This document shows, in pieces, positions 4,244 to 50,406 of a stretch of DNA of 64,000 bases. Under the pieces are notes generated by a model. That model was given only the letters and a program-made list of their open reading frames with translations. It was not told the origin of the DNA and searched no databases. The position numbers and the translations under genes were made by a program. Location: contig QPGO01000161.1 of NCBI GenBank assembly GCA_008632985.1, forward strand, positions 1-64,000, read 5' to 3'. Source of the stretch: Psammoneis japonica. Lineage: Eukaryota. Position 1 is the stretch's first letter, and every line of letters begins with the position of its first letter.

Positions 4244-4915
4244 ATGATCAAGTACTTCCTTCTTCTCGCTCTTCTCCTTACCGCTGCCAAGGCTGACGAA
4301 GACTCGGTCCGTGGCCTCTCTGGTGCGGAAACCATGACCCTCAAGGTTACCAACCTCTCGTTCCAGCAGCCCTTTTCTCCCTTCTTCGTCATGGTCCATC
4401 GCAACCGTATCCCGCCTCTCTTTGTTCTGGGCAAAGCTGCCCGCCCTGAACTTGGAGACTTGGCCGAGAACGGCAGTCCTACAGGCCTGGTTGACTATTA
4501 CAAGAAGATTCGTGGTGTGGACTCTGCCCGCGTCCACAACACCGGCGCCCCTTATTTTGGAGGCAACACGACCGAGATTAAAGTCCGTGTTCCCCGCGGT
4601 CACTTTGTTACGATTGCCAGCATGGCCATCCATACCAACGACTGCTTTGTCGCCTTGAATGGTGTCCGGGTCCGCAAGGGTAAGGTGTTTTATGGTCCGG
4701 GGTATGATTCGGGCACGGAAGAGAATAACGAGCTGTGCAGGAGCATCCCGGGACCGGCTTGCTCCAGCACGCCAGGAAATACCGCCGACGCCAATGGTGA
4801 AGGATTTGTGCACGTGCACCGTGGATTCTTTGGTCTAAACCAAGGCGAAGTCGGAGAGTTGTCGCAAGCTGGTTATGACTGGCGCAACCCGATGATGCGT
4901 CTCGAAGTAGTGTAA
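4244..4915 (+). CDS. Secreted Spondin_N-domain protein
   Basis: Signal peptide MIKYFLLLALLLTAAKA. Spondin_N-type motifs VTNLSFQQPFSPFFVMVH, LAENG, ASMAIHTNDCFVALNG, YDSGTEENNE and GFVHVHRG. Confidence 0.85.
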   Translation: MIKYFLLLALLLTAAKADEDSVRGLSGAETMTLKVTNLSFQQPFSPFFVMVHRNRIPPLFVLGKAARPELGDLAENGSPTGLVDYYKKIRGVDSARVHNTGAPYFGGNTTEIKVRVPRGHFVTIASMAIHTNDCFVALNGVRVRKGKVFYGPGYDSGTEENNELCRSIPGPACSSTPGNTADANGEGFVHVHRGFFGLNQGEVGELSQAGYDWRNPMMRLEVV

Positions 4916-5209
4916 CTTTTAAAAACGTGTAATGGTGATGCATGTTCCAACACTTGTCCGTCTTGATTCAACAATAAGTTATGATGGCCCCTTGAGATCT
5001 TCTTGGAACAATTTTGATTTAGATGCTCACCGTAACAAAACGAATAATAAGACCAAAGGATCCATCCGTACACACGGTCGGATTACCCATCGTTGTTGCT
5101 TATCAAAAGAGCGGCACGTTTTGCCCTTGGTTTCATTGTCCCCTTGAATCTCACCTGCCGACTGTCGTTGTCATATACTTAAGAGTAATAATCTTACCGT
5201 AGTCTGGAT

Positions 5210-5605
5210 ATGTTGCCTTGAATGGCGTTAGGGTCCGCAAGGGTAAAGTGTTTTATGGTCCCGGTTATATGAGTCGGGCACGGAAGATAACAATGATAGT
5301 TGTGCAGGAGCATTCCGGGACCGGCTTGCTGGGAAATACCGCCGACACCAATGGTGAAGGGTTCGTGCTCGTGCACTGTGGATTCTTTGGTCTCAACCAA
5401 GGCCACAGATTATGGAGAGTTGTCGCAAGCTGGTTATGACTGGCGTACTCCGATGATGCATGTCGAAGTAGTGTAACTTTTAAACTTGTAATGGTGATGC
5501 ATGATCCACTTGTCCATCTTGATTCAAAAATAAGATACATGCGCCCTTGAGATCTTCTTGGACACAATTAGATGTTCCCGGCACAAAACAAACAAGACCA
5601 AAGAG
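5210..5605 (+). pseudogene. Degraded tandem partial duplicate of the spondin gene 3' end and 3' UTR
   Basis: Aligns to about 4648-5060 (gccttgaatgg..gtccgcaagggtaa, gtcgcaagctggttatgactggcg, cgaagtagtgtaactttt, gacccaaag-like end) with indels and frameshifts. Confidence 0.85.
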
Positions 5606-6084
5606 GTTCGATCGGCGTTCATTGTTTTTAGCCGAAAGCGGACAAGGTCATTGATTGCCAATAATGTCGTTGCTTTTATCGATAGACTGGACGATTCCAA
5701 CAAAAGACCTGTGATTCTTTGCCTTGAATCAAACCTGTCGACTTCCATTGTCATGATGTGCTATCGGAGCAATCTTTTTGTTGGTTTTATTAGATTTTGA
5801 CAGGCTTCAGTAGTAGAGAGCATCGACGGATTATGGAGGTTTCTTTCTTTTGTGAAAAAAATAATACATCACTCTGCAAGGATTCGGGTACGTATAGGGT
5901 CTCGTCCGAAAAATGTATTTGTATCGAGACGTGCGAGAGCCTTATATTTCTGTTGATTGATTGCGTACAAAAAAACCTGTCCAAGCACTTGGAATCTTAT
6001 AGGAACCACGGGGGTCGAGGACCATCCATTTTGAGCCTCAGTCCCTCTGCCAATAGTCTTGTTGTATTACGAGTAGTCTATGTA

Positions 6085-6290
6085 TCGATATATTGAAAGC
6101 AGCAGTCTAAAACAAAGGCGGTGCAACCATAGAAGCGCCCACGAAAGGCAGATGCGAATTAGCGAAATGACAGAAAAAAACACATTAAAGATTGCAGCAA
6201 CGCACCGTTTCTACTACATTGCAGTATGATGTAAGTGCTTGTTTGCGTGAATGAATCATCATAGTCGTCCAACACCAATAACATTGTGTC
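6085..6290 (+). repeat. Intergenic repeat X, copy 1 (unmutated)
   Basis: aaaggcggtgcaaccatagaagcgccc...cagcaacgcaccgtttctact; homologous to about 9820-9945 and 20570-20760. Confidence 0.8.
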
Positions 6291-6945
6291 TTTTTCGTTA
6301 TCATTATGGTGTTGTTGAGTGAGATACTCGTGTAGGACTGTTGTGTGTCACGACGCTGGTGCCTTATTGCTCATGGAATCATGCTTCAAGAGCTTATTGG
6401 ACGCTACTCTGGTGTGCATGTGCCAGCAACCACGTATTGATGCCACCATACTATCTCTCTTATTAGCACATGTCGTGGAGGTAGGTACAGGAAGAGAAGA
6501 GAACAGAGAACAACAGAGGCGAGGGGACGGCAAATTGTACCTCATGGACGGAAGTGGAAGTGGGACTGCGAACGTGCAATTATTACATATTTATGTTCGA
6601 GACAGTTTTTGTGACGCACCTAAATAGATGTTTTTTGTCCGCGACTTCCTTACTGTACAGATAGATAGTGTTTGTTGTAACTTCTTCTAATATTGTGTCC
6701 TAAATAATAATGTCAATCGTAATGTCACTATGACTATGTAATAGTTAAGTGCATCCAACAGTATGGAGGGCAATAAAACCAATAATGATTCTTCACTCTG
6801 TCATAATTGTTGGCATTTAGCCATAAGTGTTTTTCCCCCACGATTTGATCCTCCCCCTCCTTTCATCATTCATCTGTCGCGATACGTCTCATAAAATATT
6901 GCCAATCAAACTTTGAGTTTTAAACTAGACCTTTCATTCGCAACA

Positions 6946-9417
6946 ATGTTCGCCAGTAAAGCAGTTCTTCTCCTGCTAGCTGCAGCCTCTGGTTTGCAGA
7001 GGAGCGACGCCCAACCGGTACGAACGGATGAATCGCGTGTACTTTGTTGAAAGGAGTGTGTGTCCTTACTACTTCCTTTTTGATTACTCACCATATCTTT
7101 TTTGAAATAAACGCGTTGTACAAAGGGAGAGGAAGACTACATTCTAGAAGATCCTCTGTTTCTCGGCGATCTCCAGCGGGAACTTGGTACCGACATGGGC
7201 GTCCCCGGCATCCAGACAAATGCCATTTGCATGAATGACGCTGCTGGTGAACCCGGGCTTACATGTACCTCCAACGCTGTCGATCTAGCATCGGCTATCC
7301 CACCCGCAAATGTTACGGGCTGCAACGCTGAAGGTGATGATGTCAGTTTCACTTTGCAGTTCCAACTCGATATAAATGCAGGTCAACGCTTCGACGTTGG
7401 CATTTGGTTTTCAGAAACGGGTACGAGCGCCCAAACAGGAGTCTGCACTGTGGTGAATTTACCGTGGGGACAGTCACCGACTTATGTTGACTTGGATATG
7501 ACGAACAACCCTCTTCCAGGAGGCGGCGGAAGTGCCCCTCCATCCAACATACAAGATACGTGCGGAGATCTTGACAAAAGTTCTCAAACGTTCCCTGTCA
7601 TGCTGACCATCCCCTTGACGGTGAAATGCGTCGATCTAGTTGGCAATGATCGCATGTTAGACGTACCATACTGCACCAGCTGGAGGACGTCAGGAACGAC
7701 GAAGAACACCCTATGCACATCCCCTCTTGAAACCTTTCCTCTTGAAAAAAGCATGTGCAGATGCGAAATGCTATCGCTCCCCATTGTTGTACCAGGAACG
7801 CCGAGTCCCACGCCATCACCTACCCCGAGTCCAACACCTGCGCCAACTCCTTCCCCTACCCCGAGTCCGACGCCGTCTCCAACTCCAGGTCCTACCCCGA
7901 GTCCGACACCGTCACCTACACCTGCACCAACGCCTTCGCCCACTTTGAGAAAGGGCGCTTGTTGCCCACGAGCGGGATCCGGCAGGGTTTGCTTCAAGGG
8001 AACCGAAGAAGAATGTGTTTCAAATGACGGACTCTGGCAAGGAAATGGCGTAAGCTGTCGGGACGTAGATTGCCCGACCCTACATCCTACGAAGTCTCCT
8101 ATTGAGAGACCCACCAAGGCTCCAAAACCCCCGGCTCCAACCGCAGATCCAATGACCCCGGTTCCTACCCCGGCTCCTACCAAAGCTCCTACACCAGCAC
8201 CAACGCAGAGCCCTGGTGCATGCTGCACCTTGTTTAATGGTTGCAAGTCCCTTTCTGAGGAGACGTGTACTTTGGGCGGTGGTACATTTTCGAAACCAAA
8301 CCAAAAGTGCAAGGATACTAGTTGCCCCATCACGGGAGCTTGCTGCTTGGAGGATGGATGCGAGCGATCCTTCAAAAAGGAGTGTACCAACCAAGCAGGC
8401 GAGTTCAAGGGATTTGGTGTGTCATGTACAACCGGCTTGTGCCCGATTAAACCGCGACCCCCATCCACACCCCCACCCACCCCTACGAGTACCATGAAAC
8501 CCACCCTTCCTCCTCCCCCGACTGGAGCGTGCTGTGATGTCGACAACGATGAGTGCAAGCAAACCACGCAAATAGATTGCGACACGGGCGTATTCTTAGG
8601 ACTTGGAGTCAAGTGCAAGAAGGGCGTTTGCCCCACAAGGAATTCTCCTGGAGCATGTTGCCTCGAATCTGGAGACTGCCGTTACTTGTCTCAAAAGACA
8701 TGCGCCATCTACGGAAAGCTTTTCTTGGGTCCTGGTACTTCCTGTAAGTACGTGGTGTGCGCAGTCAAGACTTCAAGCCCAACCATGGCTCCAACCACGA
8801 CTCCAAGCCCGTCCATTACTCCAACCACGACTTCAAGCCCGACCACTACTCCAAGCCCAACTACGACTCCAAGCCCAACCATATACACGAAACCGCTCGG
8901 AGCCTGCTGCTTCAAGAACGGACTTTGCCGCAACCTCATTCCTGCCGTATGCAGGAAGAAGTACGGCAAGTTCATCGGTGTTGGTACAATGTGTAAGCCT
9001 GACAACACCTGTCCCGTTGGGGGCGGCAAGCCCGGTGCGTGTTGCTTGGTTGAAAAGAACCAATGCAGAACTCTCAAGGAGAAGCAGTGCATCAAGAAGA
9101 GTGGGCATTTTGCTGGAGAACGTGTCAAGTGCAGCAAAACTTCGTGTCCGGCTGCCTATGGTGCATGCTGCTTGCCCAAGGGATCGTGTGCCGTGTTGAA
9201 GAAGAATCTGTGCGTGAAGAAGAAGCACGGGAAGTTTGTCGGATTCGGTACCAAGTGCAAGAAGAAGACCTGTGCCTCTGAAGAAGGTGCCTGTTGCTTG
9301 AAGAATGACAAGTGCAAAATGTTGAAACAGTCCAAGTGCGACAGACGCGGAGGAAAATTCGTTGGAGCGGGTGTCAAGTGCCGCAAGAAGACCTGCCGCA
9401 AGAGCCCTGATTATTAG
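6946..9417 (+). CDS. Secreted Cys-rich protein with PT/PS mucin-like linkers, GACC repeats and a Lys-rich C-terminus (paralog A1); join(6946..7017,7126..9417)
   Basis: Signal peptide [26 protein letters not shown] intron 7018-7125 keeps the frame into the 740-aa ORF. About 9 repeats of GACC-x-C-x-C-x-G-x-F-x-G-x-G-x-x-C. (TPSP/TPAP)n linkers. Confidence 0.85.
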
Positions 9418-9649
9418 TAGTTCGCACCCCGATCTACCATGCGAAAAATATGAAATGAAAATTCTCAAATTGATTTTGTTGAGATTGTTTCTACATACAA
9501 CTTCTAGTTTGCCGAATCAGTTGACCGTATAGGGTTTGATTAAAAATAAAGTTGCTTGATTCGTCGTCGATTGAAACGCACTTTATTTTTCCTAGTTTGA
9601 ATGTTCAATGTGCTTTTATTTGTGATTTAGACCTTGTTAAAAAACCGTT

Positions 9650-9945
9650 ATTTGGATCTAAAGCGAAGAGTCAGATTTGGACTCTTGCGGAATGCGGTGC
9701 ATAAGACCTCATCAACTCATGACAGTTCAGACTGGCTCCAACAGAAGGCCACCACTTCTTGGCACATGCCACAAGAGGATGGTGAGATGTGAAGAGTTTG
9801 AATGAAATTTGATGTCTGAAAAAGGTGGTGCAACCACACAAGCACCCTCACAGTGGACCAACAGCAAAGCACATGAAAGACAGCAACACACTCCTGTTTT
9901 CACTGCAACAGAAGTGCTTTGAATGAGTGAGTCACTCATTCAAGA
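9650..9945 (+). repeat. Downstream flank and repeat X, copy 2 (hypermutated from about 9720)
   Basis: Homologous to 20325-20760 and 6085-6290, but with TA->CA/TG and CG->TG/CA changes. Confidence 0.8.
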
Positions 9946-9949
9946 CCAA

Positions 9950-12900
9950 TGCCCCACCCTGAGAGACCACAGTGTGTGGACATCTTGGAGAATCTTGAAG
10001 AGATGCTTGTCACACTGGGTTTGCTTGGTGATGCAGCGGATTGACAGATGGCATTGTGGGGGGAAACACCTGGGGCAATGCAGGCAAGGAATGGATGGGT
10101 TTTTGGCGATGAAACAGCAGGTTGAGAATGCAGTTTTGTGGAGTTGCACAAGAGTCGCTCAGCAAGTGACTTGATGGTGGTAAGACTGAGGCTTTGAAAC
10201 CCCCGCTGGCATGCATGGACAGACTGCTGCAGCAGTGGAGAAGAGGCTGGGCACGGGTGCATGCAGTGTGCACAGATGGGTGGTGAAAGAAGGGCTTGGA
10301 TGTCCAAGGCAGAGCTGGCTGGGCAGAGACAGGGTGTTCTTGGTTGGCTCCAAACAGGAAGCAGTGGGCAAAGTGTCTTGGAGTGCCAAGGTGGTCAACA
10401 GCACCAACGGGGGTCAGTTCCCAGGTGGATGCAAGCACCACCTGAGGAGGTGATCACAGCAGCACCATGCTGCATTTTTAGAGTGCCACAAACTTCTGCT
10501 TGGCACTTGCATGATGTGCTTCAGCCAAGGGATTTTGAGTGGGGGCAGGCCATCCACACTTGCAAGACAGCTGTTGCCCAGAGGAGGGGCAGTGAAGAAA
10601 GCAGGGGGGGGGGGCAGGACAGCTGCATTGACAGGGCATTTAAGAGGCAAGTGCAAGATGAGGTTTGCAGGTTCATGGTGGATGGCAGAGGAGCCAGTGC
10701 AGAGACTGGAGAGACACCAGTTTTATGGCAAGCTGCAAAGAAGCTGTTGCAAATGGCATTGGATGGCACAATCTTGTGTCCCAAGGAGCAGCGACAGAAG
10801 GCATGATTGCCACAGCAGCCAGCAGCACCACTTTTCAGCTGTGAGTGAACACAGTCAAGATGCAATTGTTTGTGCAATGAACAGAGACAATGCACTCAAT
10901 TGACTCTCAAGGGGTGTGACAACCATGAGAGTGTGAGCAACTGGTGCAAACAAAAATGGCACTGATGCTGTTGGCTCCAACATGTCCAGTCCACTGGTGC
11001 GCCTGTGGCTTGCTGTTGCAAATCCATCAAAATTGTCACTGGCGGCAGTTTTTCCTTGGGGTGTTGTCCATGTGCACAAAAAAGGAGTTGTGGTTGGTTT
11101 GAAGCAAACACATTGCTTGTCTTGAGCTGTTCAATGAGTGCATTGACAATGGAGAGAATCTCTTGCGGTGGGCAGCAAATGACACAAAATGAGAGAAAGT
11201 CACTCAAACATGAAAACTGCAACTCAAATGAAGCTGTGATTCAGCAACCTTCTTGTGGGCACAAGAAAGGCACTCATGCCTCAAGTCTGTGCCCCATGTC
11301 AAGATTGATGCCACCACAATCCATGGACTCCCATGGTGGGACAGAGTGTTTTGCCGTGCAAAAAGAAGCTCCACAGGAGCCTTGGAAGGGTGGACAAGCA
11401 AACACATCAAACACCTGTGTCTGATCTGTCCAACAAGATGCCAGGGGACAGTGGCAACAAGCATGGCACCAGTGATGAAGGAAAATGAGTGGAGGATCTA
11501 AGATGGATCCATGCTCTGTCTGCACATGCCAGCATCTGTCCCCCTGGGTGTGCACCCAACACACCTCACAATCAAATGGCCATCATCCTCTGCTGATGGG
11601 CAATCTAGAGTCTCACTCTGCCAGAGAGCTGGTCAAGAAAAGAGAAAGAAAATTCAAGAAAGAAAAGGGGAGACAGACAATTGCAAATGTCTGAAAGGGT
11701 TGCCAAACAGAAGCTGCAGAGTCAAAGCAGACATCAGTCAAATGCATCAGCCACGGGGTGCCCCATCAATCGTCAAGCATGGTGAGCATGAAGTGCCCAT
11801 CCAACCACCTTGGTGAGAACATCAACAGGGTTGATGACTCCAGGGATGTGTCCAGAGACAATTTTCCCAGCCCCACGCCAGTCTTGGGGACAACAAAATG
11901 GTGAGTGTCAATGTGACATCATTGCTCAGCAGGGACCTGAGATGGTTGGTCATTTCGACAGCCAAAGAGTTGTCAATGAAGTGAGGGGTGGGTTCCTGTT
12001 GAAAATTCTAAGTTCCTCCAAGATCAATCAAAGCACAAGACCTGTTCAGCTCCAGTGACACCAGGCAGCAAGAAATTCTGCCTCAGCAAAACTTGTTGCA
12101 GCGAGCAACCGAGCAGTGCATCTTCATGCAGTGGCAGTGCCCACAAGAGTGTGTGGGTGCACCCTGTCATGGAATGGTGGCACAGCAGAGTTCATTGGTG
12201 CAGGCAGCATGAACAAATCCAAGTGGCTGAAAAGGGTCCCACACAACAGGAAATTGGGGCAATGCAGGATCAGCAACCAACCATTCAAAAGAGCAAGGTG
12301 GAAGGTCTGGGTTGCGATGGGACTTCTTGCATGACAACCCCCAGTCCTTGGTGCATCAAAGACACTTGGCAACATGGCAAAGAGAGTTGCAATGGGGCCT
12401 TGGCAAACTTGGAAAGGGTGACAATGGGGTGTTCAATGTCAAGGCGGCAACACGTGCATGCAAAAATCGATCCGCCCAAGAGCAAGCATTCCGGGGACTT
12501 GTGGCAATCTTCCACAAAGTGGCCTGCACCATTGCACCTTCTTCAGGACCCACTGTGTCAAACAACTTGGCAATGCAGCCAACTGGAACAGGAGTGGCTT
12601 TGAAATCCATGGTGGATTTGACAGTTGATCATGATCAAGTCATCATTTTCTTGATGACACCAAGTCCATTGAATTCAGTGCAGAGGTCCAGGCACTTGAA
12701 GGGAGGGGTCTTTTTGGCAAGAAGCCACAGCTCTCTGCCAATGTGATCAAAAACAGCAGTGGCGACATCTTCACTTGGACATGCCAGGGAGAAATTGTCA
12801 ACCCATTGCAGCAGCAACACCTTGGTGCCACTGCAGGTGATGGAGTGGACACACTTGTCGTGGACAGTGTTGCAAAACAATGGCTCAGCATTGGACAATG

Positions 12901-15900
12901 CAGCAATGATTTGCTTTTCCCACAAAACACCTGCCTTGGGATGGCCTTGAAGAGCATGAAGGACTAGAAGTGCATGACCCAGGTTCACACCTTTGCCAAA
13001 ATGGCCTTTTGACACTCACAACAAGTGCCGTCAACCACCACATGTGAGCTGGAGCAGAAGGAAAGGGGAGGTGAGTGAGCACGCACATCACAAGCATCTC
13101 CAGAAAACACTCAACAAATTGAACCTGCACTCAAGGCAAAGAAGAGCCGCTGGATCAACACACAAAGAACAGGCAGCCAGAAGCAAGCTTGTGGAGTGTG
13201 GGAACTGCTTTCTTGCATCAATCTCCACATTGTCTAGAATGGCCTTCACCTGCAGGCTTGAGATGATGTGTTGCCAGTGCAGTTGCATGACAGTGGCACC
13301 AGGTGGTTGAGGTTGCGGAGGTCCATGAATGCCAAGAGGAGCACAGAATTGACCCAACTGTTTCCATTTGCCTGCCTGTCATTTGAGCCGAGCAGCCAGT
13401 TTGCGAATGCAAGAGTGAAAAGACAATCCAGAGCCGCTTCCTCCTCAGCAATTTCATAAAAAACATGGCATTGAGGTGGGCACAAAATGCATTGTCCAGA
13501 ATTGCATCCTCAGAAAAATCATCTTTTGGACAGACAATGGAGGCAATCTCCCAAACTTCCTCAAGAGCAATCTGAGGGATGCGGGCTTCATTGTCAATTG
13601 GGGAGTCTGTGTCACACTTCATGTGGTCTTCCACTGCATGATGAAGTTGACAAGAGTCCAGGCAGTGTTTGGGTGCAAAAACAATGTCAAAAAGGGGGGG
13701 AAATGGATTCATCAAATGCCTGGCAAGAGCAGACTCAGCATGGATGATTGGCATCAAAAGGTTGGTGTTGATGAAGCAAACTGAGTTGCCCAGTGCATGA
13801 CACCCACACACCAGCCAGTGTCAACCTGAGTTTGGCAGTGAGCACTGTCATGCAAGACATGATTGACAGGAGCCACTGGGGCATCAAGAGAGTGAAATGC
13901 AATGTCTGCATGATGGGGTGGGATGAGAGGTGAGATGTGGACAGCGCTGAGCAGAGAAAGGTGTGCTTCCTCTTCCAAATCAAGGCATTCAAAGCCCAAA
14001 CTGTGTCAACATTGGCAGCATGGGGAACAGGAGATCCTTGCACTTTCTCTGGGTGATGTTTCACTCTCCTCCCCTTGTCTGGAGTGGATGGGTCATCATC
14101 AGGAATGGCAGCAATGCAAGGGGTGCCAGCAGAGGCTTGAGAAATGTCATTGGCACCCCCAAAGAGGCACGGAAGCAAGTGGCAACAAGTTGGTTGGACC
14201 CTCTTTCACAGTTGCCTTGCACTCATTGGTGTGATCAGAGAAAGAGGCACAGGGCAGCATTGCACATCCAAAATTAAAAATGGTCCAGACAAAAATCCAA
14301 GCTGTTGTCTGTCTGCAACACAGCAGCTTCATCCTGGAGATGTCATTTGCATTGTGCAGATTGACAGAAGAAATGAATCACATGTGAATGAGGAACGCAG
14401 CATTGTGCTCAAGATGGGACACTGTGCAAACTTGTGTTTGCCATTGCATGGCAGTCACAGGTGGTGGCGGTCTGCAGCAGTGGGGTCCTGCTTGATCTGG
14501 CAAACACCAGCAGTGTGTGATCCATGTGGAGCATGAGCAGTGTCATCTTCTGGAATCTCCATGGCAGCCAGTTCATTGACCAGCACATTGACAGCATCAT
14601 CAACTGGCTCAACAGGAGGAAGTTTCTTGGTTTCCGGAGTCAATGGCTCTTTGGGTTCTGGCAAGCATGTGAGCTGATGAATGGGTTCTTCACATTCCAG
14701 CAAATGTGTGAGCTGGCAAACCGGTGCACCATTGTGGGGATTGCATGGTGGATGGTTGTTCTGGCTGGAGGTGCAATGAGCAGGACATGCAGGAGTGTCA
14801 GGGCATTGAGCAGGACTGTCAGGTTCATTGAGAATGAGAGTCAGCATCTCAACAATCTTCTGGGCCTTGAATTGATTGACCTTGTTGGAGTTGTTCTTGC
14901 AAGCATTGGCTGTTTTGCAATGAGTGCATTCTCCACACTTCATGCCACCAATGAAGATGTCAAGTCAACCAAGAATGTCCAAGGATGCATCCACATTGGC
15001 ATCAACAGTGTGCACTTGATGGAAGTCCTTGAACAGAGCACAACAGCTGAGGACGGTGTCTTCAGTTTTGTGGGGGCAGCCACAGATCAGGTCATGTGAA
15101 CGGTTGCATGCCAAATGGGTGGGCAATCAAATGGGGCAATCTTGAGGGTGGAGCATCTGTCTCCATGGCACCATCAAACAACATCAGGAAACTTGGAGTC
15201 AGCAGGGAACAAACCTGGCTTCTGGAGGCACAAAAATCATGAAAGTCATTTGTTTCAGAGGCAGAGCCAAGCATTGAGGGAGATCAGCAGTTTTGTCATT
15301 TTTTCAGATGCAAGCCCCCAATCACCACAATCTTTTGCAAAGCACCAAAGGAGCAAATGTGTGTGCCATGAGATGCAACCTGTTGAGTGAAGACATTGCG
15401 ACATGCACGCAGGCTTTGAGGTGAAGCATCATTGCAAAACAGGGCATCATGCAGAAAAGATCCATCACATGGAAAGAGGTGCTCAGTGCCATCCAAGGCT
15501 CCATTCTTGCAGGGAGTCAAAGAGTTGCCGAGCATGACTTTGCCATCCTCCTTCTTGCATTCACATCATGCCAACACATCAGGAGGCAGTGTCTTTGGAT
15601 TGAATGTGCAAGCTGGAGATGACAGTGTTGATGAGGCAGGTGGTTGTGGAACTTGTTGAGGGTGGGGGCACACAGTTCATTGCTCGTTTCATGGCCTGCT
15701 CATGCTGAGCAGAACCAGGCAGATGATTGGCCAAGGCTTTGGCAAACTTGTTGTGATCAAGGACTAGAGCAGGAACAGTCTTGGCAGGTGGTGCACCAGA
15801 CGGAGCTTTCGTGTCACAGGGCTTGGCAGAAATGTCTTCTGAGTTGGCATGTGAAGCAATGCCAGTGCAGAGGAAGAGAGGTGCAGTGCCAACATGGACA

Positions 15901-16900
15901 AGCTTGGTGTCTTCATCTTCCAAAATTGCTTGAGTCATTGCCTTCAGTGGCTACAACAGGTTGAGCCGTTTCTCAAGTTGTCCAAACACACTGACAAAGA
16001 AAGGAGGAACAACCTTGTCAAAGATGGACTTGATGACAGAGGTTTTTCACATGGATCATTTAAAGAGCAATCAGTTCATGGATGATCTTCTTGCAAAGGA
16101 TCTGTGCAGAATCAATGTGAAGTCCATGGGGAGTGAAATCATTCAGAAATGGTCAAAAAGCTCTCTTGCACCTTCTTTCAGGTCAAATTTGTGAAGCTGA
16201 CATTTGAAGACAGGTGGAACATTTTCTGCTGTGTTTTTTTTGTGTCTGCTGCTGGGTGTGGACTTTGCTTGTTCACTCTTTAGCCACAGCAAATTTGTTT
16301 GGCCCTGCACAACAAGCGCCCGGTTGTTTCCTGTCTGGACCCCCAAAGCATTCATGCAGCCATTGTCTCCCTGCCACATCTTCTTTGATGTGCTGGGGAG
16401 TGTGGGTCCACTGTGTGGTCAGTGTTGCTGGGCCAACAGTGAGGCAATGGTGCAGCCAACTTCCATTTCTTTGTCTGCAAGGTGCCAAGGATGAGGGCCT
16501 CTGCTTGTGCCCCAGCAACAAGAGCCAGCGAGTTGCTTGTTTCATGGACTCTCAAATTTTGCTGGACTCTGGCAACACAAAGGCTCCCAAGACCCTGCGA
16601 GCATCAAGTCTCCTCCAGGGTGCATCATTTTACATTGTGGTTGCCCCACTTTGTTGGTTTCCAAGCAGGGTGTGCCACAGTGCACTGGTGCTGGCCCCAG
16701 CTTTTTGGAGCGACCTTGGGGGATTTCCCAGTTTTTTGGCATTCTTGCACCCCCCCCCCCCCCCCCCCCCCCCCGAACTCTCAAGCGGTGTCCATGCAAA
16801 TGTGGCCCAAAAGCGTCATGCTGGAAGTCACGTGGCGGCAGGGGGGTTTGTGACAACAATTTGTTCGAGGCATTTTTGGTGACGCCCTAGCACCATGGCG
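9950..16900 (-). mobile_element. Degenerate Ty1/Copia LTR retrotransposon (CoDi-like), TpA- and CpG-depleted
   Basis: Minus-strand RT remnants PPGATVMQLHWQH, VLHALQGHPKAGVLWEK and LLLQWVDNFSLA (xVDD region). RNase H remnants ATSFAEAEF, CHIDT and PVDVLTKVVGWALHAHHA*RLMG (about 11755-12110). Gag-like region about 14500-16500. No LTR pair found. 9950-11700 is unidentified but has the same composition. Confidence 0.85.
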
Positions 16901-17308
16901 CATCCTCTCAATTTTTGGAATTGCGTTGTTCACCATGTAAATGTTGCTTTTGTCTTGGACTCTGCCTTACAGTAGAGTTGTACGTATTTCTTTATTTGTC
17001 ATCTTAAATGACATGGTCAGTGGTACAAATATACTTTTAAATGTATCAGCATTATCATGTAATAGTTAATTAAGTGTAAACTACTTATGCGCAGAAGGCA
17101 CAGATGTGTCATGGGCAATATGAAGGGCAGTATAATATTAATAATGATTTTTAACTATGGCATAATGTTGTTACATTTAGTCATAAGTGTTTTTCAACAC
17201 ACGATTTGATCCTCCCATCCTTTCATCTCGGAGACGATCTGATGTCGCGATACGTCTCACAAAATGGCAATCGAACATTGAGTTAAGCTAGGCAGTTCAT
17301 TCGCAACA

Positions 17309-19997
17309 ATGTTCACCAGTAGAGCAGTTCTTCTACTGTTAGCTGCAGCCTTTGGTTCGCAGAGGAGCGACGCCCAACCGGTACGGAAAGATGATTCGTG
17401 TGTACTTTGTTGAGGAGTGTGTGTTCTTACTACTTCCTTTTTGATTACTCACAAGATTTTTTCAAATAAATCCGTTTTACAAAGGGAGAAGAAGACTATG
17501 TTCTAGAAGACCCTCTGTTTCTCGGCGATCTCCAGAGGGAACTTGGTACCGACATGGGCGTCCCCGGCATCGAGACAAATGCCATTTGCATGAATGACGC
17601 TGCTGGTGAACCCGGGCTTACATGTACCTCCAACGCTGTCGATTTAGCATCGGCTATCCCACCCGCAAATGTTACGGGCTGCAACGCTGAAGGTGATGAT
17701 GTCAGTTTCACTTTGCAGTTCCAACTCGATATAAATGCAGGTCAACGCTTCGACGTTGGCATTTGGTTTTCAGAAACGGGTACGAGCGCCCAAACAGGAG
17801 TCTGCACTGTGGTGAATCTTCCGTGGGGACAGTCACCGACTTATGTTGACTTGGATATGGCGAACAACCCTTTTCCAGGAGGCGGCGGAAGTGCCCCTCC
17901 ATCTAACATACAAGATACGTGCGGAGACCTTGACAAAAGTTCTCAAACGTTCCCTGTCATGCTGACCATCCCCTTGACGGTGAAATGCGTCGATCTAGTT
18001 GGCAATGATCGAATGTTAGATGTACCGTACTGCACCAGCTGGAGGACATCAGGAACGACTAAGAACACTCTATGCACATCCCCTCTTGAAACCTTTCCTC
18101 TTGAAAAAAGCATGTGCAGATGCGAAATGCTATCGCTCCCCATTGTTGTACCAGGCACGCCGAGTCCCACGCCATCACCCACCCCGAGTCCAACACCTGC
18201 GCCAACTCCTTCCCCTACCCCGAGTCCGACGCCGTCTCCAACTCCAGGTCCTACCCCGAGTCCGACGCCGTCTCCAACTCCAGGTCCTACCCCGAGTCCG
18301 ACGCCGTCTCCAACTTCTGCTCCTACCCCGAGTCCGACGCCGTCACCAACTTCTGCTCCTACCCCAAGTCCGACGCCGTCCCCTACACCAGCGGAAACGC
18401 CGTCTCCAACCCCTGCTCCTACACCAGTGCCAACGCCGTCTCCAACTCCATCTCCTACACCAGCGACAACGCCGTCTCCAACTCCAGCTCCTACCCCGAG
18501 TCCGACAATGTCGCCCACACCCGCACCAACGCCGATTCCAACTCCCGCTCCTACCCCGAGTCCGACACCGTCACCTACACCTGCACCAACGCCGTCACCA
18601 ACTGTGCGGAAGGGAGCTTGCTGCCCACCAGCAGGATCCAACAGGGTTTGCTTCAAGGGAACTGAAGAAGAATGTCTTTTAAATTACGGACTTTGGCAAG
18701 GAAACGGCGTAACGTGCAAGGACGTAGATTGCCCTACCTTATCTCCTACGACTTCTCCTACCGACAGCTCTACCGTGGCACCAACTACCCCGACTCCGAC
18801 CGCAGCTCCAACGACCCCGGCTCCTACCAAAGCTCCTACACTGCCACCGACAAAAGTTGATCAAAGCCCTGGTGCATGCTGCACCTTGTTTTATGGTTGC
18901 AAGTTCCTTTCTCAGGAGACGTGCGCTTTGGGTGGTGGTACATTTACGAAACCAAACCAAAAGTGCAATGACACTGAATGCCCCACTAAAGGAGCTTGCT
19001 GCTTGGAAGATGGATGCAGGAAAACCTTCAAGAAGGAGTGTACCAACCAAGGTGGCGAGTTCAAGGGATTAGGTGTGCCATGTGAGCCCGGTTTGTGCCC
19101 GACTAAACCGCCAACCCCAGCTCCAACCACCGCTAAGCCTAGCATGAGACCCACCGTAACTCCTCCCCCGACTGGAGCGTGCTGTGATTTCAAGAAGGAT
19201 GAATGTGAGCAAACCACGGAAGAAGATTGCAACACGGGCGTATTCTTAGGACTTGGAGTCAAGTGCAAGCCGGGCATTTGTCCTACAAGGACTTCTCCTG
19301 GAGCGTGTTGCCTCAAATCTGGAAAGTGCCGTACTGGTCTCAAAAGACATGCACTACCAACGGAAACTTCTTCTTGGGTCCTGGTACTTCCTGTAGGAAC
19401 GTGGTGTGCGCAGTCAAGACTCCAAGCCCAACCCCTACTCCTGCCAAGAAACCGCTCGGAGCCTGCTGCTTTGACAGTGGACTTTGCCGCAACCTTATTC
19501 CTGCCGTGTGTAGGAGGAGGTACGGCAAGTTCATCGCTATTGGTACAATGTGTAAGCCTGACAATACCTGTCCCGTTGGGAGGCGCGGCGGCAAGCCTGG
19601 TGCGTGTTGTTTGGTTGAAAAGAAGCAATGCAGAACTCTCAAGGAGAAGCAGTGCATCAAGAGGGGTGGACATTTTGCTGGAAAAGGTGTCAAGTGCAGC
19701 AAGAGATCGTGCCCGGCCGCCTATGGTGCATGCTGCTTGCCCAATGGATCGTGCGTCGTGTTGAAGAAGAAGCAGTGCATCAAGAAGAAGCACGGAAAGT
19801 TTGTCGGATTAGATACCAAGTGTCGCAAAAAGACATGCGCCTCAGAAATAGGGGCCTGTTGCTTGAGTAGCGGCAAGTGCATAATGTTGAAACATTCCAA
19901 GTGCTACAGGCGCGGCGGGAAATTCGTTGGAGATGTCAAGTGCCGCAAGAAGTTATGCCGCAAGAGACCTGATTACTACGAGTACTTCGCAACCTGA
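17309..19997 (+). CDS. Paralog A2 of the GACC-repeat secreted protein; join(17309..17380,17485..19997) with a 1-nt deletion near 19332
   Basis: Same signal exon and intron as A1 and near-identical N-terminal domain, with a longer PT linker. tgccgtactggtct versus A1 tgccgttacttgtct shifts the frame; the 19227..19997 frame restores the GACC repeats. Confidence 0.8.
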
Positions 19998-20324
19998 TTT
20001 ACCATGCGAGAAACATGAAATGGAAATTCTCAGATTGATTTTGTTGAGATTGTTTGTGCATAGTTTGCCGAATCGGTTGACCGTAGTTTTTGATAAAAAA
20101 ATAAGTTGCTTGATTCGTCATCGATTGAAACGCACTGTTAAACTCGAATGAGTGAGCGTGTGTATTTTGCGCTTGTGGCAAATAAACGGAGTAATAGCGA
20201 ATTCGCTTTACAAGCGGGACATTGCCATCGCGACTGTACTCTGGCTCTTGCTTGTTTCCTCTATCTTTCTTTTCCTCATTGGCACCCCCCTCACAAAGAT
20301 CGCAGCTCCGTGTCAGCGTCATTT

Positions 20325-20760
20325 TGTATCTAAAGGGAAGAGTCAGATTTGGATTCTCGCAGAAGGTGGTGCAAAAGCTTGCGTCGACTCATGATGGCAG
20401 TCGATCAAGACTCTCAACTCTGGTCAGACTGGCTCTAATTAGAAGGCCGTTACTATTCTTGGCATGGGCCGCAAAAAAGGGTGATAAGATGCGAAAGTTT
20501 GAATGAGATTTGATGTGGGATGCGAAACTACACACCCAGATTTGAGACAGTCTTTTTGAGATTAGCCGATATATCGATATTGAAAGCATGTAGCAGTCGC
20601 AAAAGGCGGTGCAACCATAAAAGCGCCCATACGATAGAGCAGATGAATTAGACGAATGACACAAAAACACATGCTCCGTAAAAGACAGCAACGCACCGTT
20701 TCTACTGTAATGAAAGTGCTTTGCGTGAGTGAATCATCACACTCGTTCAACTCCAATAAC
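20325..20760 (+). repeat. Downstream flank and repeat X, copy 3 (unmutated)
   Basis: Matches 9650-9945 and 6085-6290 and retains its TA and CG dinucleotides. Confidence 0.8.
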
Positions 20761-21154
20761 GCCCCATGAGAGACCGTAGTATCTTTTTGGAGAGTCTCGA
20801 AAGGAACAGCACTTACCATGGGTTTGTAATTTACGAGATCAAGGTTCGTGATCTCATTCACAAAACATAATATCAGGCGGGAATTTGGGGTGTATCATAA
20901 AAAATGCGACACACATATATTAATATATATATACAAAGAGAAAGCAAGGGGGTTTATCTAAAGAAGTTAAATACAAATATGAAAATATTCAAATATATTG
21001 TATTCAGTGTTGTATTACCAGACGTACGGAAACTCCCGCTTGCTCCCGCTCACAAATTGGCGAGGGCGTCGAGAGAGCTTTTCACAGCGCAGCACAACAA
21101 TGTCATAAAAAATAAAGACGCATCATAAACTGACTGGCAGATACGAACATAACA

Positions 21155-21994
21155 ATGAAGGCTTCTGGTGACAGCACGCTGTCATTGCTCGAGCTTGGAG
21201 ACGACGTCGTTTCTCAAGTGTGTACGTTTCTCGACGTCAGGGCGCTTTGTCGTTTCGAGCAGTCTTGTCGACGTGGCGTTCGTTTCACCCCGACTGCGTG
21301 GCATCGATTGAGCCAAGACAAAAGTGTACATGATGAAGAAACCAGTAATGACGCTCCACGCATCATTGTGGAACGTCGACATCGGCTCATTTCGTTCGCA
21401 ATGAGAATGAAACAAGAGGCCGACCAACATTATGGCGGTTACAGTGATCATGAATTGATGGACGTTACTTGTCCTGGTAAATGCAGTCTTCCCATGTTTC
21501 TTGATGTTGCCATGCCCATAGCTTCCCCAGAAAGTTACCGTTTCTGTTGCCATTATGGCGGTTACAGTGATCATGAATTGATGGACGTTACTTGTCCTGG
21601 TAAATGCAGTCTTCCCATGTTTCTTGATGTTGCCATGCCCATAGCTTCCCCAGAAAGTTACCGTTTCTGTTGCCATCTGTCCTATTTGGACAATATTCAA
21701 GAGTTCTGTTTCCCAGCCTTTGATGTTCTTCCCGCTGCTGGATACTTGTCTCCCTCATTTTATGATTTGGATCTGCCAGAAGAAGAAGACCTATTAAAGC
21801 ATTTTGCAACGATTCGATCTCATAAACTTCCTATTCAGAGCGAATGGCTGAAGACTTTACTGTTTGAACACAGCGTTGGTTTGAGATCTGGAACACCAGA
21901 GGACGAGTATTTTTCAAACCTCCGTATCGTTGTAGCCGTTGCAAGAGGGGATGACGCTCGCAGTTTGTACCCCTCGCTACTGCACCCATTATAA
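21155..21994 (+). CDS. F-box-like protein with an internal exact 41-aa duplication
   Basis: N-terminal LLELGDDVVSQVCTFLDVRALCRFEQSCRR resembles the F-box consensus. The 3' end is uncertain. Confidence 0.55.
   Translation: MKASGDSTLSLLELGDDVVSQVCTFLDVRALCRFEQSCRRGVRFTPTAWHRLSQDKSVHDEETSNDAPRIIVERRHRLISFAMRMKQEADQHYGGYSDHELMDVTCPGKCSLPMFLDVAMPIASPESYRFCCHYGGYSDHELMDVTCPGKCSLPMFLDVAMPIASPESYRFCCHLSYLDNIQEFCFPAFDVLPAAGYLSPSFYDLDLPEEEDLLKHFATIRSHKLPIQSEWLKTLLFEHSVGLRSGTPEDEYFSNLRIVVAVARGDDARSLYPSLLHPL
21428..21673 (+). repeat. Exact 123-bp tandem duplication (in frame)
   Basis: 21428-21550 equals 21551-21673, with cat microhomology at the junction. Confidence 0.95.
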
Positions 21995-22624
21995 GACTCG
22001 AAGGTTGGGTGAAATGAGCGGAACCCTCGAGATCCACAGGGATGAGTTGTGGGTTAGGCTAATTCTTCATCACTCACCGCCTGAAGTGCTCAAGCCAGAG
22101 GGCGCGTGGTGATTCAGAACAATTTCAATTTGACAAGAATTGACCAACGCCGCGCACGTGTGCATCTAGAAAGAACGATTTCGATAACATACTGTAGTAA
22201 ATGAGCTCCTTGTTTTTTCCCCTGTCACTTGAGACGTTCCGCGCGAGGACAGGGTGTACCTCAAACTACGCAGTACTTTGTCGTTGCGCATTGTATGCTC
22301 TCGTTTTGATAAGTGACGAAAAGTAGACTTGCGATTTCGCCATGTTGACGAACCTCGTCTCCAAAACAAATTGCTTCTCTTGACGCCTTACTTCTTCCGC
22401 ATGGCCCTTAGACGATGCTTGCCATACCGGTACTACCGTAGTAGAGTACTTAATCAGTGCTTTCGTTCTATTCACGAACAAAAGTAAAAAGGAGGTGTGT
22501 ATAGACAGTCGAGTTTAGAATGAGTCGTAATTGTTAGTGTAATTAGCTAGTGTTGATATATGCTGAAGAAAGAGTCTTCATACGGTAGGCCAATGTTGCA
22601 TCAAACAGCAGTCGTTTGATCAAA

Positions 22625-23260
22625 TTAGTTCAAGTTTTCCAGGATTCCCTTTCCATTGACAAGCTCCTGGGCCATGAAACCAGCGGCGGCAATCATGGCG
22701 AGGCGTCCGTTCTGGAGCTCCTTGGTGGCCATAATGTCAAATTCTTCAGGGTCGGAAGGCTTGAGGTTCAAGGGATCAAAACCGATATCACCAGGGTAGT
22801 AGTCGGCCTTCAGAAGTCCGGGCTGATCAACAGGAACATCGGCAGGGTCGACCCATCCAATCTCGGCACGCTTTTGTTCAGCGGCACCAATTCCGGTAAT
22901 CAAAAGTGCCCAGAAAAGAGGAGGAACTTGGGAAAGATGGGAAATGGCAGGTCCAGTGATTTGGGCATCGAAAAGGAAGGAAGATCCCTCAACCTTTTCT
23001 CCAACCAAGAATCCGAGAACCGCAAGCATGGCAACACGTCCGTGCGTGACCTCGGCCTCACGGTAACGCTTGAGGGTGTTGGCGTCGGCCTTGGCGGCAA
23101 AATTGAGAGGATCGAAGATACCGGTAGGAGCAATGGCACCGGGGATAGTATCAACCGTGTAGGCAGGGGCCGAAGCAGCGGTCTGGGCCTTCTTGGCACC
23201 GAAAGGTCCAAAGGCAGAAGTGGTAGAGGCGAGAGCGAGGACGGAGAGAGCGAGCTTCAT
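22625..23260 (-). CDS. LHCX: Photoprotective fucoxanthin-chlorophyll a/c binding protein, LHCX/LI818 clade
   Basis: Bipartite plastid targeting (signal peptide plus SAF). Motifs FDPL, YREAEVTHGRVAMLA, GEKVEGSSFLFDAQITGPAISHL, RAEIGWV, YYPGDIGFDPL and KELQNGRLAM. Intronless. Confidence 0.95.
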   Translation of the reverse strand: MKLALSVLALASTTSAFGPFGAKKAQTAASAPAYTVDTIPGAIAPTGIFDPLNFAAKADANTLKRYREAEVTHGRVAMLAVLGFLVGEKVEGSSFLFDAQITGPAISHLSQVPPLFWALLITGIGAAEQKRAEIGWVDPADVPVDQPGLLKADYYPGDIGFDPLNLKPSDPEEFDIMATKELQNGRLAMIAAAGFMAQELVNGKGILENLN

Positions 23261-23399
23261 GATGAGTTGGGGTAAGTTTGCCGATTTGAAAAATTGTGAG
23301 ACGAGCTAGTGAAAAGTGTGTGAGAACGCTGAGTCCCAAACGCACTCGTCAGCGGGATCTATACGTCGTCCATGGTGACATCAGATCCTCACCAGCTCT

Positions 23400-49954: not shown

Positions 49955-49992
49955 GTCCCACCTAGGGCTGGAACGCGTCNTTCTCATGTGGG
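49955..49992. mobile_element. Ends of a second, inverted copy of the same TIR family collapsed around an N
   Basis: gtcccacctagggctggaacgcgtc is the reverse complement (2 mismatches) of 49590-49614. It is followed by N at 49980 and then atgtggg. cgga/cggag occurs on both flanks. Confidence 0.5.
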
Positions 49993-50406
49993 CGGAGATG
50001 ACATGACCACACGATGTGCACAGAGCATCTCAAAAATCTCTGGGATGCTCACATTGTCGCATTGTTTCTCTCAACAAAACATTGCTCTTCATCAGCATTT
50101 CTCAGCAACCTTGCTCTTGGTCAGTCGACACCACGTTGATTAAAAAAATTCAATGCAAATCAACAAAAAATTGGAAATGAAGAATGAACACATGAGATTG
50201 CGACATCGAGAAGCACAGACATCTAAAAATGACAGACTTGTTTTGACCGTGCCCGAACATTCAGAGATGCTTTTTCCATTCTTGCAAGCAACATGCGATC
50301 CGCGACTTGCGACTTCTTGTTGACCAAGCAGCAAAACGCGTCTCCTGTGATTCTGGATTCTTCCTTCAGTTTCCTTGAACAAACATTGCAGCTTGCACAT
50401 TCAACG

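What the first reader, a model, noticed from the sequence alone, without database searches (positions are those of the whole stretch)
9720..9945. Three-copy repeat shows leakage of the mutator about 230 bp into host flank
Seen: copies at 6114 (aaaggCGgtgcaaccaTAgaagCGccc) and 20602 (aaaggCGgtgcaaccaTAaaagCGccc) agree. The copy beside the Copia at 9821 reads aaaggTGgtgcaaccaCAcaagCAccc. Likewise cagcaaCGcacCGtttcTActgTAa (20686) becomes cagcaaCAcactccTGttttCActgCAa (9881), and gaTAagatgCGa becomes ggTGagatgTGa. Two unmutated copies fix the ancestral state. The effect fades by about 9715 and spares the A1 3' UTR.
Basis: seen in the sequence. Interest (0 to 1): 0.8.

Follow-up and report, generated by a model that had tools for sequence, protein, structure and literature searches.

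The report
TA/CG-erasing mutation overruns host DNA
In this alga-like genome a mutation process that rewrites every TA and CG step to TG or CA in transposon-bearing DNA has also rewritten about 320 bases of ordinary neighbouring DNA and then stops abruptly, which suggests it is aimed at a chromosomal domain and not at the transposon sequence itself.

Summary
Gene unit 6759-10027 is a diverged duplicate of 17116-20826, and part of its tail has a third copy at 6071-6282. In the last 309 aligned columns of unit 1 (9703-10023), all 13 TA and 13 of 15 CG of the paralog read CA or TG. Unit 1 keeps none and there is no reverse case. All other sites diverge exactly as in the untouched 285 bp next door.

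Three corrections. The homology runs to about 10023-10027, not 9945, so the affected host piece is about 320 bp. The edge is a step between 9702 and 9711, not a fade. The only recognisable Copia remnant (RT/RNase H, minus strand, 11758-13691) lies 1.7 kb away inside a 7.2-kb depleted tract, and no LTRs were found.

The 3-kb gene duplicate (81-92% identical) and the other two tail copies are unmutated. Targeting is therefore by position, not by repetition, unlike fungal RIP.

The TA signature matches one 2026 preprint on Bigelowiella natans, whose main text does not mention flanks or CpG.

This scan has already reported the same process on other pieces of this genome, including spread into a host gene. 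What is new here is a clean paralog control and a sharp boundary.

The parts
9703..10027 (.). Tail of duplicated host unit 1 with every TA and CG erased. This is the finding, extended.
   Evidence: Over the conservatively aligned 9703-10023, 13 of 13 TA and 13 of 15 CG of the paralog read CA/TG. There are 0 TA and 0 CG in the raw sequence. Homology is significant to 10023-10027.
9418..9702 (.). Unmutated stretch between the A1 stop codon and the step edge. It serves as the internal control.
   Evidence: It holds 20 TA and 11 CG. TA/CG to CA/TG differences against unit 2 are balanced, 5 forward and 10 reverse. Non-target divergence is the same as in the tract.
7195..9417 (+). ORF 'A1' (740 aa). 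It is repeat-rich, has no Pfam family, and is a paralog of 17554-19764.
   Evidence: Homology search hits are low-complexity matches only. There is no directional TA/CG loss in it.
10028..16887 (.). Rest of the 7185-bp TA/CG-depleted tract (9703-16887). It has no homology to unit 2 or copy 0.
   Evidence: HMM segmentation gives TA o/e 0.04 and CG o/e 0.14. No homology to the DNA downstream of unit 2 or of copy 0. No Pfam hit in any of six read-through frames.
11758..13691 (-). Degenerate Ty1/copia-type pol remnant (RT to the C-terminus).
   Evidence: phmmer of 12359-13015(-) gives 276 hits at E<=1e-3, best 7e-26. Six of 7 homologs checked carry RVT_2, one of them below Pfam's cut-off, and 5 of these also carry integrase SH3 and gag_pre-integrs. 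tblastn maps residues 612-1277 of a 1280-aa polyprotein to 13691-11758.
20375..20826 (.). Unmutated paralogous tail of unit 2. It is the 'before' state.
   Evidence: It aligns to 9703-10023 and keeps 13 TA and 15 CG. It lies in a normal tract with TA o/e 0.64 and CG o/e 0.91.
6071..6282 (.). Third, partial copy of the tail (copy 0), unmutated.
   Evidence: 75% identical to 20560-20760. It shares 7 CG and 3 TA with unit 2 that unit 1 has lost.
17116..20374 (+). Duplicated unit 2 up to the point that matches the step edge. It includes ORF A2 at 17554-19764.
   Evidence: Self-BLAST gives 92%, 81% and 84% identity blocks to 6759-9582. Differences from unit 1 are symmetric.

Best explanation
A DNA-level process that acts on both strands turns TpA into TpG/CpA and CpG into TpG/CpA. 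It has run to saturation over one continuous 7.2-kb domain (9703-16887). That domain holds a dead Copia-type retroelement remnant. Its left-most 321-325 bp are ordinary host DNA, the tail of a duplicated gene unit.

The host piece was mutated in place after the duplication. The process is aimed at a position, most likely a silent-chromatin domain nucleated by the element, and not at transposon sequence or at repeated sequence. The domain ends at a fixed boundary about 286 bp past the stop codon of the convergently oriented gene A1.

Inferred, not shown:
- The CpG part is deamination of 5-methylcytosine in methylated transposon chromatin.
- The TpA part is the same A:T to G:C chemistry that was measured in Bigelowiella natans.
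- The boundary is the 3' end of the A1 transcription unit.
For: Shown:
1. Dinucleotide specificity and completeness. 13 of 13 TA and 13 of 15 CG are converted, 0 are kept and there are 0 reverse cases. Transitions hit 28 of 58 target sites against 25 of 255 non-target sites, p=2e-10 (over 9703-10027).
2. Non-target divergence is equal on both sides of the edge: 24 transitions and 14 transversions in 253 sites, against 22 and 15 in 227. The two sides therefore share one history, and only TA/CG changes were added.
3. Polarity comes from two unmutated copies and from composition (0 TA and 0 CG against 14 and 18 expected).
4. Both strands are hit: T>C 8 against A>G 6, and C>T 4 against G>A 10. CA:TG is 855:783 over the tract.
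5. The edge is a step: last TA at 9702, first converted site at 9711.
6. It is not triggered by repetition. About 3 kb of duplicate at 81-92% identity, and the two other tail copies, are untouched.
7. The same tail sequence, in the same position relative to its gene but without a depleted tract beside it (unit 2), is untouched.
8. A Copia pol remnant lies inside the tract.

From the literature:
- TpA-only T/A to C/G hypermutation of integrated viral DNA, measured in mutation-accumulation lines of B. natans (preprint 10.64898/2026.01.13.699255; abstract and part 2 of the Results read).
- Transposons are the main targets of CG methylation in diatoms (PMC9998398, passages).
Against: - The true ends of the element are unknown. 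No LTR pair was found. The pol remnant is 1.7 kb from the host piece, and 10028-11757 is unidentified. 'Spread from the TE' is therefore an inference from co-extension.
- No chromatin, methylation or transcript data exist for this locus. No RNA holder was listed and no genome is held.
- On the right side of the tract the CG and TA edges do not coincide. CG returns from about 16529-16711, but TA only from 16888. Another tract (49964-52532) has lost TA but keeps CG at o/e 0.63. The two losses may therefore be separate processes with different reach.
- In the three-way stretch the unit-1 branch is longer at non-target sites as well (roughly 13 private changes against 2 in unit 2). The model does not explain this.
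- That the organism is a diatom rests on earlier notes and on weak hints from named relatives.
Confidence: 0.7

Rival explanations
1. The tail is itself a repeated or mobile element (three copies in the window). It was targeted as a repeat in its own right, so no spreading from the neighbouring block is needed.
For: A third copy at 6071-6282 lies apart from the gene duplicates. Unit 1 and unit 2 tails differ by several large indels.
Against: The other two copies of the same sequence are unmutated. So is the 3-kb duplicated gene at 81-92% identity. The mutated part starts in the middle of the colinear unit, not at a repeat boundary. No further copies were found in the window.
Confidence: 0.1
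2. The mutated tail was not mutated in place. It was brought in together with the block by recombination or gene conversion from another copy that was already mutated elsewhere in the genome.
For: No genome is held, so other copies cannot be excluded. The mutated state begins at a sharp point, as a conversion tract would.
Against: Non-target divergence from unit 2 is the same on both sides of the edge: transitions 9.5% against 9.7%, transversions 5.5% against 6.6%. This is expected for one continuous history and unlikely for a segment from a different copy.
Confidence: 0.1
3. RNA-level editing of read-through transcripts of the element, followed by reverse transcription, produced the pattern.
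For: The Copia remnant is on the minus strand with its 3' side towards the flank. Read-through RNA would therefore cover 10027-9703.
Against: The flank is colinear with the host paralog, not a retro-copy. Both strands are hit about equally: T>C 8 against A>G 6, and CA:TG 42:35 in the flank. CpG loss is not an RNA-editing signature.
Confidence: 0.03
4. The pattern is chance, an alignment artefact, or selection on composition.
For: The noncoding alignment has many indels. MAFFT and the pairwise alignments differ in detail.
Against: 27:0 against 5:10 in the adjacent control, p=2e-6. Zero TA and zero CG in 334 bp of raw sequence needs no alignment (Poisson 7e-7 and 2e-8). Homology z is 9.5.
Confidence: 0.02

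Closest known systems
TpA-restricted hypermutation of integrated giant-virus and virophage DNA in Bigelowiella natans (Mettrop et al., bioRxiv 10.64898/2026.01.13.699255; abstract and part 2 of the Results read, word search of the main text)
   Same: Changes are almost only T/A to C/G at TpA. TpA falls as CpA+TpG rises. The effect is confined to clustered regions of foreign-type DNA.
   Different: That work is on a chlorarachniophyte, not this stramenopile-like genome. There the regions are far from saturated (Rho TpA 0.45 for the NCLDV region), whereas here o/e is 0.04. The words flank, boundar, spread, CpG and diatom each occur 0 times in its main text. Here CpG is lost as well, host DNA is included, and the edge is a step. 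Its supplements were not seen.
Repeat-induced point mutation (RIP) of ascomycetes and 'RIP leakage' into single-copy DNA (PMC9453070, passages read; the details of RIP chemistry are recalled)
   Same: A transition-only, dinucleotide-biased mutation of transposon-rich DNA that also affects adjacent non-repetitive DNA.
   Different: The chemistry runs the other way: RIP makes TpA from CpA/TpG, while here TpA is destroyed. RIP is triggered by duplication. Here a 3-kb duplicate at 81-92% identity is untouched. Here there is a saturated plateau with a step edge. That RIP leakage declines with distance is recalled, not checked.
CpG decay by deamination of 5-methylcytosine in methylated diatom transposons (PMC9998398, passages read)
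   Same: CG to TG/CA on both strands in DNA that holds a transposon remnant. Reach of methylation beyond the element is a plausible cause of the CG half of the signal (inference).
   Different: It explains nothing about TpA loss. Methylation at this locus was not measured.
5-hydroxymethyluracil made by a TET/JBP enzyme and silencing transposons in dinoflagellates (PMC11572971; only the search listing and the start of the abstract were seen)
   Same: A thymine-directed DNA modification aimed at transposons in another SAR lineage. It would offer a T-side route to T to C at TpA (my inference).
   Different: No mutation signature is claimed in what I saw. No such enzyme or base was tested here.

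Membership tests
TpA-restricted hypermutation (B. natans type) | Substitutions are T/A to C/G transitions confined to TpA | tested here: met
   13 of 13 paralog TA read CA/TG. Non-TA/CG transitions are no more frequent than in the adjacent control, 24 of 253 against 22 of 227.
TpA-restricted hypermutation (B. natans type) | Restricted to foreign (viral or transposon) DNA | tested here: not met
   321-325 bp of host-paralogous DNA is included. The tract does contain a Copia remnant.
TpA-restricted hypermutation (B. natans type) | Locally raised mutation rate measured in real time (mutation-accumulation lines) | not testable with these tools
   No resequencing data. No genome or runs are available.
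TpA-restricted hypermutation (B. natans type) | Only TpA is affected; CpG is not part of the signature | tested here: not met
   13 of 15 CG are also converted. The preprint's main text never mentions CpG. CG loss may be a separate, superimposed process (tract 49964-52532 keeps CG).
Fungal RIP | C to T / G to A transitions that create TpA (CpA to TpA) | tested here: not met
   The direction is opposite: TA is destroyed, 0 TA in the tract. The RIP definition is recalled and taken from the abstracts.
Fungal RIP | Triggered by sequence duplication; all copies are hit | tested here: not met
   The duplicate 6759-9702 / 17116-20374 (81-92% identity) and two of three tail copies are unmutated.
Fungal RIP | Leakage into adjacent single-copy DNA | tested here: met
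   Host flank 9703-10027 is mutated. This is an analogy of behaviour only.
Fungal RIP | RID / DIM-2 type cytosine methyltransferase machinery | not testable with these tools
   No genome is held.
5mC-deamination CpG decay with methylation beyond the element | CG to TG/CA on both strands | tested here: met
   C>T 4 and G>A 10 at CG sites. 13 of 15 CG converted.
5mC-deamination CpG decay with methylation beyond the element | Cytosine methylation present over the tract | not testable with these tools
   No methylome data.
Ty1/copia LTR retrotransposon (the neighbouring element) | RVT_2-type reverse transcriptase | tested here: met
   phmmer best E 7e-26. Six of 7 homologs checked carry RVT_2. The window ORFs themselves give no direct Pfam hit.
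Ty1/copia LTR retrotransposon (the neighbouring element) | Two LTRs, gag and integrase present (a complete element) | tested here: not met
   No LTR pair rises above shuffles. No significant gag or integrase match.

The most novel reading that the evidence does not exclude
This diatom-like genome has a silent-chromatin-directed mutator that erases both self-complementary pyrimidine-purine steps (TpA and CpG) to TpG/CpA. Its target is defined epigenetically, by domain, and not by homology. It therefore overruns unique host DNA up to a sharp boundary set by the neighbouring gene's transcription unit, and rewrites gene flanks wherever a transposon lands. A bolder sub-reading is that one chemistry acts on the 5-methylpyrimidine of each step (T in TpA, 5mC in CpG). 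I give that sub-reading about 0.1.
Probability: 0.45. Interest if true: 0.8.

Novelty: new variant of a known kind. Interest (0 to 1): 0.6.

Why it matters
TpA-specific A:T to G:C hypermutation is so far documented only in one 2026 preprint, on viral inserts in an unrelated alga, and how it finds its target is unknown.

This locus is a natural experiment. The same sequence sits in three places. Only the copy that abuts the transposon-bearing tract is rewritten, completely and up to a step edge. A 3-kb duplicate next to it is spared.

This argues that targeting is positional, by domain, and not by homology or foreignness. It sets the process apart from RIP. It also predicts that the edges of epigenetic marks should coincide with the edges of the mutation tracts, which can be tested directly.

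It also means that transposon insertions can irreversibly recode neighbouring regulatory DNA in these algae.

Tried and rejected
- Whole genome: none is held, so no genome-wide measure of decay from TE edges was possible.
- RNA evidence for the A1 3' end: no RNA holder was listed.
- Direct Pfam scans of 14 and then 9 ORFs, and of six read-through frames of 10030-16900, gave no TE family. The only matches were weak sub-threshold ones such as a zinc knuckle at E 0.002. The Copia identity came only through phmmer against the large library.
- LTR search with transition-tolerant and purine/pyrimidine-only scoring gave nothing above shuffles.
- Search for homology after the block, as an empty-site test: 10030-17115 against 20830-23400 and against 6283-6758 gave nothing above shuffles. 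Beyond 10028 there was also nothing.
- tblastx of the block against the rest of the window gave no hits.
- tblastn for gag or integrase gave nothing convincing.
- Rfam on 5900-21200 gave 0 matches at E<=1, so the tail is not a known RNA gene.
- Metagenome scan with the 18-mer gave 94 loci, all sharing only 23-32 nt with the window. These are chance matches.
- Look-up of the tail in earlier scan notes by sequence and by place (near) gave nothing.
- ESM Atlas for A1 gave a best score of 0.79, which is uninformative. The homolog search for A1 gave only low-complexity repeat matches.
- Taxon check with the glycosyltransferase-like ORF at 55381-56535: eukaryotic. The only named close relative begins 'Thalass...' (MMETSP). 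A diatom is therefore plausible but not shown.
- Weak spread into the A1 coding end (8600-9417): 6 forward against 2 reverse TA events. This is not significant, and CG was balanced at 5 against 6. Rejected.
- The MAFFT three-way alignment and my first projection misaligned the start of unit 1. One search replaced them.

Full report
**What is in the window**

Dinucleotide profiling shows blocks in which TA and CG have almost vanished while CA and TG are nearly doubled. TA o/e is about 0.02-0.05, CG about 0.1 and CA/TG about 1.9. A two-state segmentation on TA positions gives seven depleted tracts that total 25,955 of 64,000 bp. One of them is 9703-16887 (7185 bp, 16 TA, 60 CG).

Self-BLAST shows that the finding lies at the end of a diverged duplication:
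- 6759-9999 matches 17116-20801, in blocks of 92%, 81%, 84% and about 69% identity.
- Each unit carries a long ORF, A1 at 7195-9417 and A2 at 17554-19764.
- Part of the tail has a third copy, 6071-6282 against 20560-20760, at 75% identity.

**Checking the observation**

The quoted strings are present at the stated places. The conserved 18-mer occurs three times against 0.04 expected.

I aligned the two units with a transition-tolerant score. I then counted, for every TA or CG of one copy, what the other copy holds.

| Region | Aligned columns | Unit 2 TA/CG that read CA/TG in unit 1 (forward) | Unit 1 TA/CG that read CA/TG in unit 2 (reverse) | Non-target transitions | Non-target transversions |
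|---|---|---|---|---|---|
| Tract 9703-10023 | 309 | 26 (13 of 13 TA, 13 of 15 CG) | 0 | 24 of 253 | 14 of 253 |
| Adjacent control 9417-9702 | 275 | 5 | 10 | 22 of 227 | 15 of 227 |
| Whole control 6759-9702 | 2808 | 30 | 36 | 139 of 2318 | 99 of 2318 |

In the tract the 13 TA became CA (8) or TG (5), and the 13 CG became CA (9) or TG (4). The two remaining CG are lost by other changes. None is kept, and unit 1 has no TA or CG of its own.

With the 9703-10027 counts (27:0), Fisher's test gives p=2e-6 against the adjacent control and p=8e-8 against the whole control.

Sites outside TA and CG diverge equally on the two sides of the edge. The tract therefore differs from its neighbour only by the added TA/CG changes.

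The raw sequence needs no alignment. The 334 bp from 9703 to 10036 hold 0 TA and 0 CG, where 14 and 18 are expected from base composition and the local o/e.

For polarity I used the three-way comparison. Ten dinucleotides are TA or CG in both copy 0 and unit 2. In unit 1, nine of them are CA/TG and one is AA.

- Homology to unit 2 does not stop at 9945. The stretch 9946-10027 aligns with z=9.5 (0 of 300 shuffles), while nothing beyond 10028 exceeds shuffles. The affected host piece is therefore 321-325 bp.
- The effect does not fade. The last TA is at 9702, the last CG at 9695 and the first converted site at 9711. The 285 bp before the edge show no forward excess.
- A slight forward excess of TA events in the A1 coding end (6 against 2) is not significant, and CG is balanced there.

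**The neighbouring element**

The window ORFs and six read-through frames gave no Pfam family.

The ORF at 12359-13015 on the minus strand finds 276 proteins at E<=1e-3 in the 1.8-billion-protein library, best 7e-26. I scanned 7 of these:
- Six carry RVT_2, one of them below Pfam's cut-off.
- Five of those six also carry the integrase SH3 and gag_pre-integrs domains.

tblastn places residues 612-1277 of a 1280-residue polyprotein on 13691-11758, minus strand. No gag or integrase part and no LTR pair can be found.

'Copia' is therefore right for a pol remnant. That remnant lies 1.7 kb from the host piece, and the true ends of the element are unknown. The intervening 10028-11757 is depleted DNA of unknown origin.

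**How it most likely works**

Changes fall on both strands: T>C 8 against A>G 6, and C>T 4 against G>A 10. CA:TG is 42:35 in the flank and 855:783 over the tract. This, together with the colinearity of the flank with its paralog, rules out editing of a retro-copied RNA.

The trigger is not repetition. About 3 kb of duplicate at 81-92% identity, and two of the three tail copies, are untouched.

Being intergenic is not enough either. Unit 2's tail occupies the same position behind its gene and is untouched. What distinguishes unit 1's tail is that it is contiguous with the tract that carries the element.

I therefore read the tract as a domain, probably silent chromatin nucleated by the element, within which TA and CG are driven to CA/TG. 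The domain ends at a fixed boundary 286 bp past the A1 stop codon. A1 and the pol remnant are convergent, so the boundary may be the 3' end of the A1 transcription unit. I could not test this, because no RNA holder was listed.

The CG half is most simply 5mC deamination. Transposons are the main CG-methylation targets in diatoms (PMC9998398, passages).

The TA half matches the TpA-only T/A to C/G hypermutation measured in B. natans (preprint; abstract and part 2 of the Results read). Those authors propose an adenine deaminase.

TpA is self-complementary, so a thymine-side chemistry cannot be excluded from sequence alone. One example would be oxidised thymine mispairing with G. This is my inference. 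The only related paper I saw, in listing only, is PMC11572971.

**Points against or unexplained**

- On the right side of the tract CG returns from about 16529-16711, but TA only from 16888.
- Tract 49964-52532 has lost TA but keeps CG at o/e 0.63. The two losses can therefore be uncoupled.
- In the three-way stretch, unit 1 has 19 transitions and 5 transversions private to it, against 0 and 2 for unit 2 (137 sites). About ten of unit 1's changes are the TA/CG events. The rest are an unexplained excess, which may reflect where the root lies.
- Import of a tail that was already mutated elsewhere cannot be excluded without the genome. The equal non-target divergence across the edge argues against it.

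**Comparison with what is known, and novelty**

I ran five literature searches that bear on the TA/CG signature and its closest analogues. They turned up only the B. natans preprint for this signature. In its main text the words flank, boundar, spread, CpG and diatom each occur 0 times.

RIP leakage (PMC9453070) is the nearest behavioural analogue, but RIP's chemistry and its trigger both fail the tests made here.

Earlier notes of this scan already describe the same process on other pieces of this genome. They include sharp-edged tracts and spread into a host gene, so the phenomenon is not new to the scan. This locus adds a three-copy paralog control, equal background divergence across a step edge, and an untouched 3-kb duplicate. 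Together these point to positional rather than homology-based targeting.

That the organism is a diatom rests on those notes and on weak hints. I did not establish it.

Noticed in passing
window 49964-52532: A tract that has lost TA (o/e 0.07) but keeps CG at o/e 0.63. The other tracts have CG o/e of 0.14-0.34 (the partial tract at the left end, 1-801, has 0.52). TA loss and CG loss can therefore be uncoupled.
   Followed up: partly
window 16529-16887: On the right side of the 9703-16887 tract CG reappears (16529, 16598, 16711 and onward) some 180-350 bp before TA does (16888 and onward). On the left side both edges coincide within 16 bp. The stretch includes a proline-codon run.
   Followed up: no
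window 51765-51893 and 53379-53508: An inverted repeat pair at 90% identity, with one arm in a depleted tract and one in normal DNA. The arm in the tract shows a few TA to TG/CA differences but keeps other TAs, so it looks only partly mutated.
   Followed up: partly
window 20560-20765 against 9816-9955 and 6071-6290: In the three-way stretch, unit 1 has about 13 private changes outside TA/CG, against 2 in unit 2. No explanation tested here accounts for this.
   Followed up: no
window 21428-21673: A perfect 123-bp tandem duplication (100% identity) inside ORF 21155-21994. It lies in normal, unmutated DNA.
   Followed up: no
window 4648-5058 and 5211-5603: Another local direct duplication (82% identity, about 400 bp) in normal DNA, with no TA/CG depletion. 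This is a further case of a duplicate that is not targeted.
   Followed up: no
window 7726-8001 and 18085-18636: A1 and A2 hold arrays of 12/36-bp periodic repeats of different length. Protein searches hit only low-complexity PT-repeat-type proteins, some of them from raphid diatoms.
   Followed up: partly
window 12285-12542 (-): A weak CCHC zinc-knuckle match (E 0.002, below Pfam's cut-off) lies downstream of the RT in the minus-strand order. That is not the Copia gene order, so the block may hold more than one element fragment.
   Followed up: no
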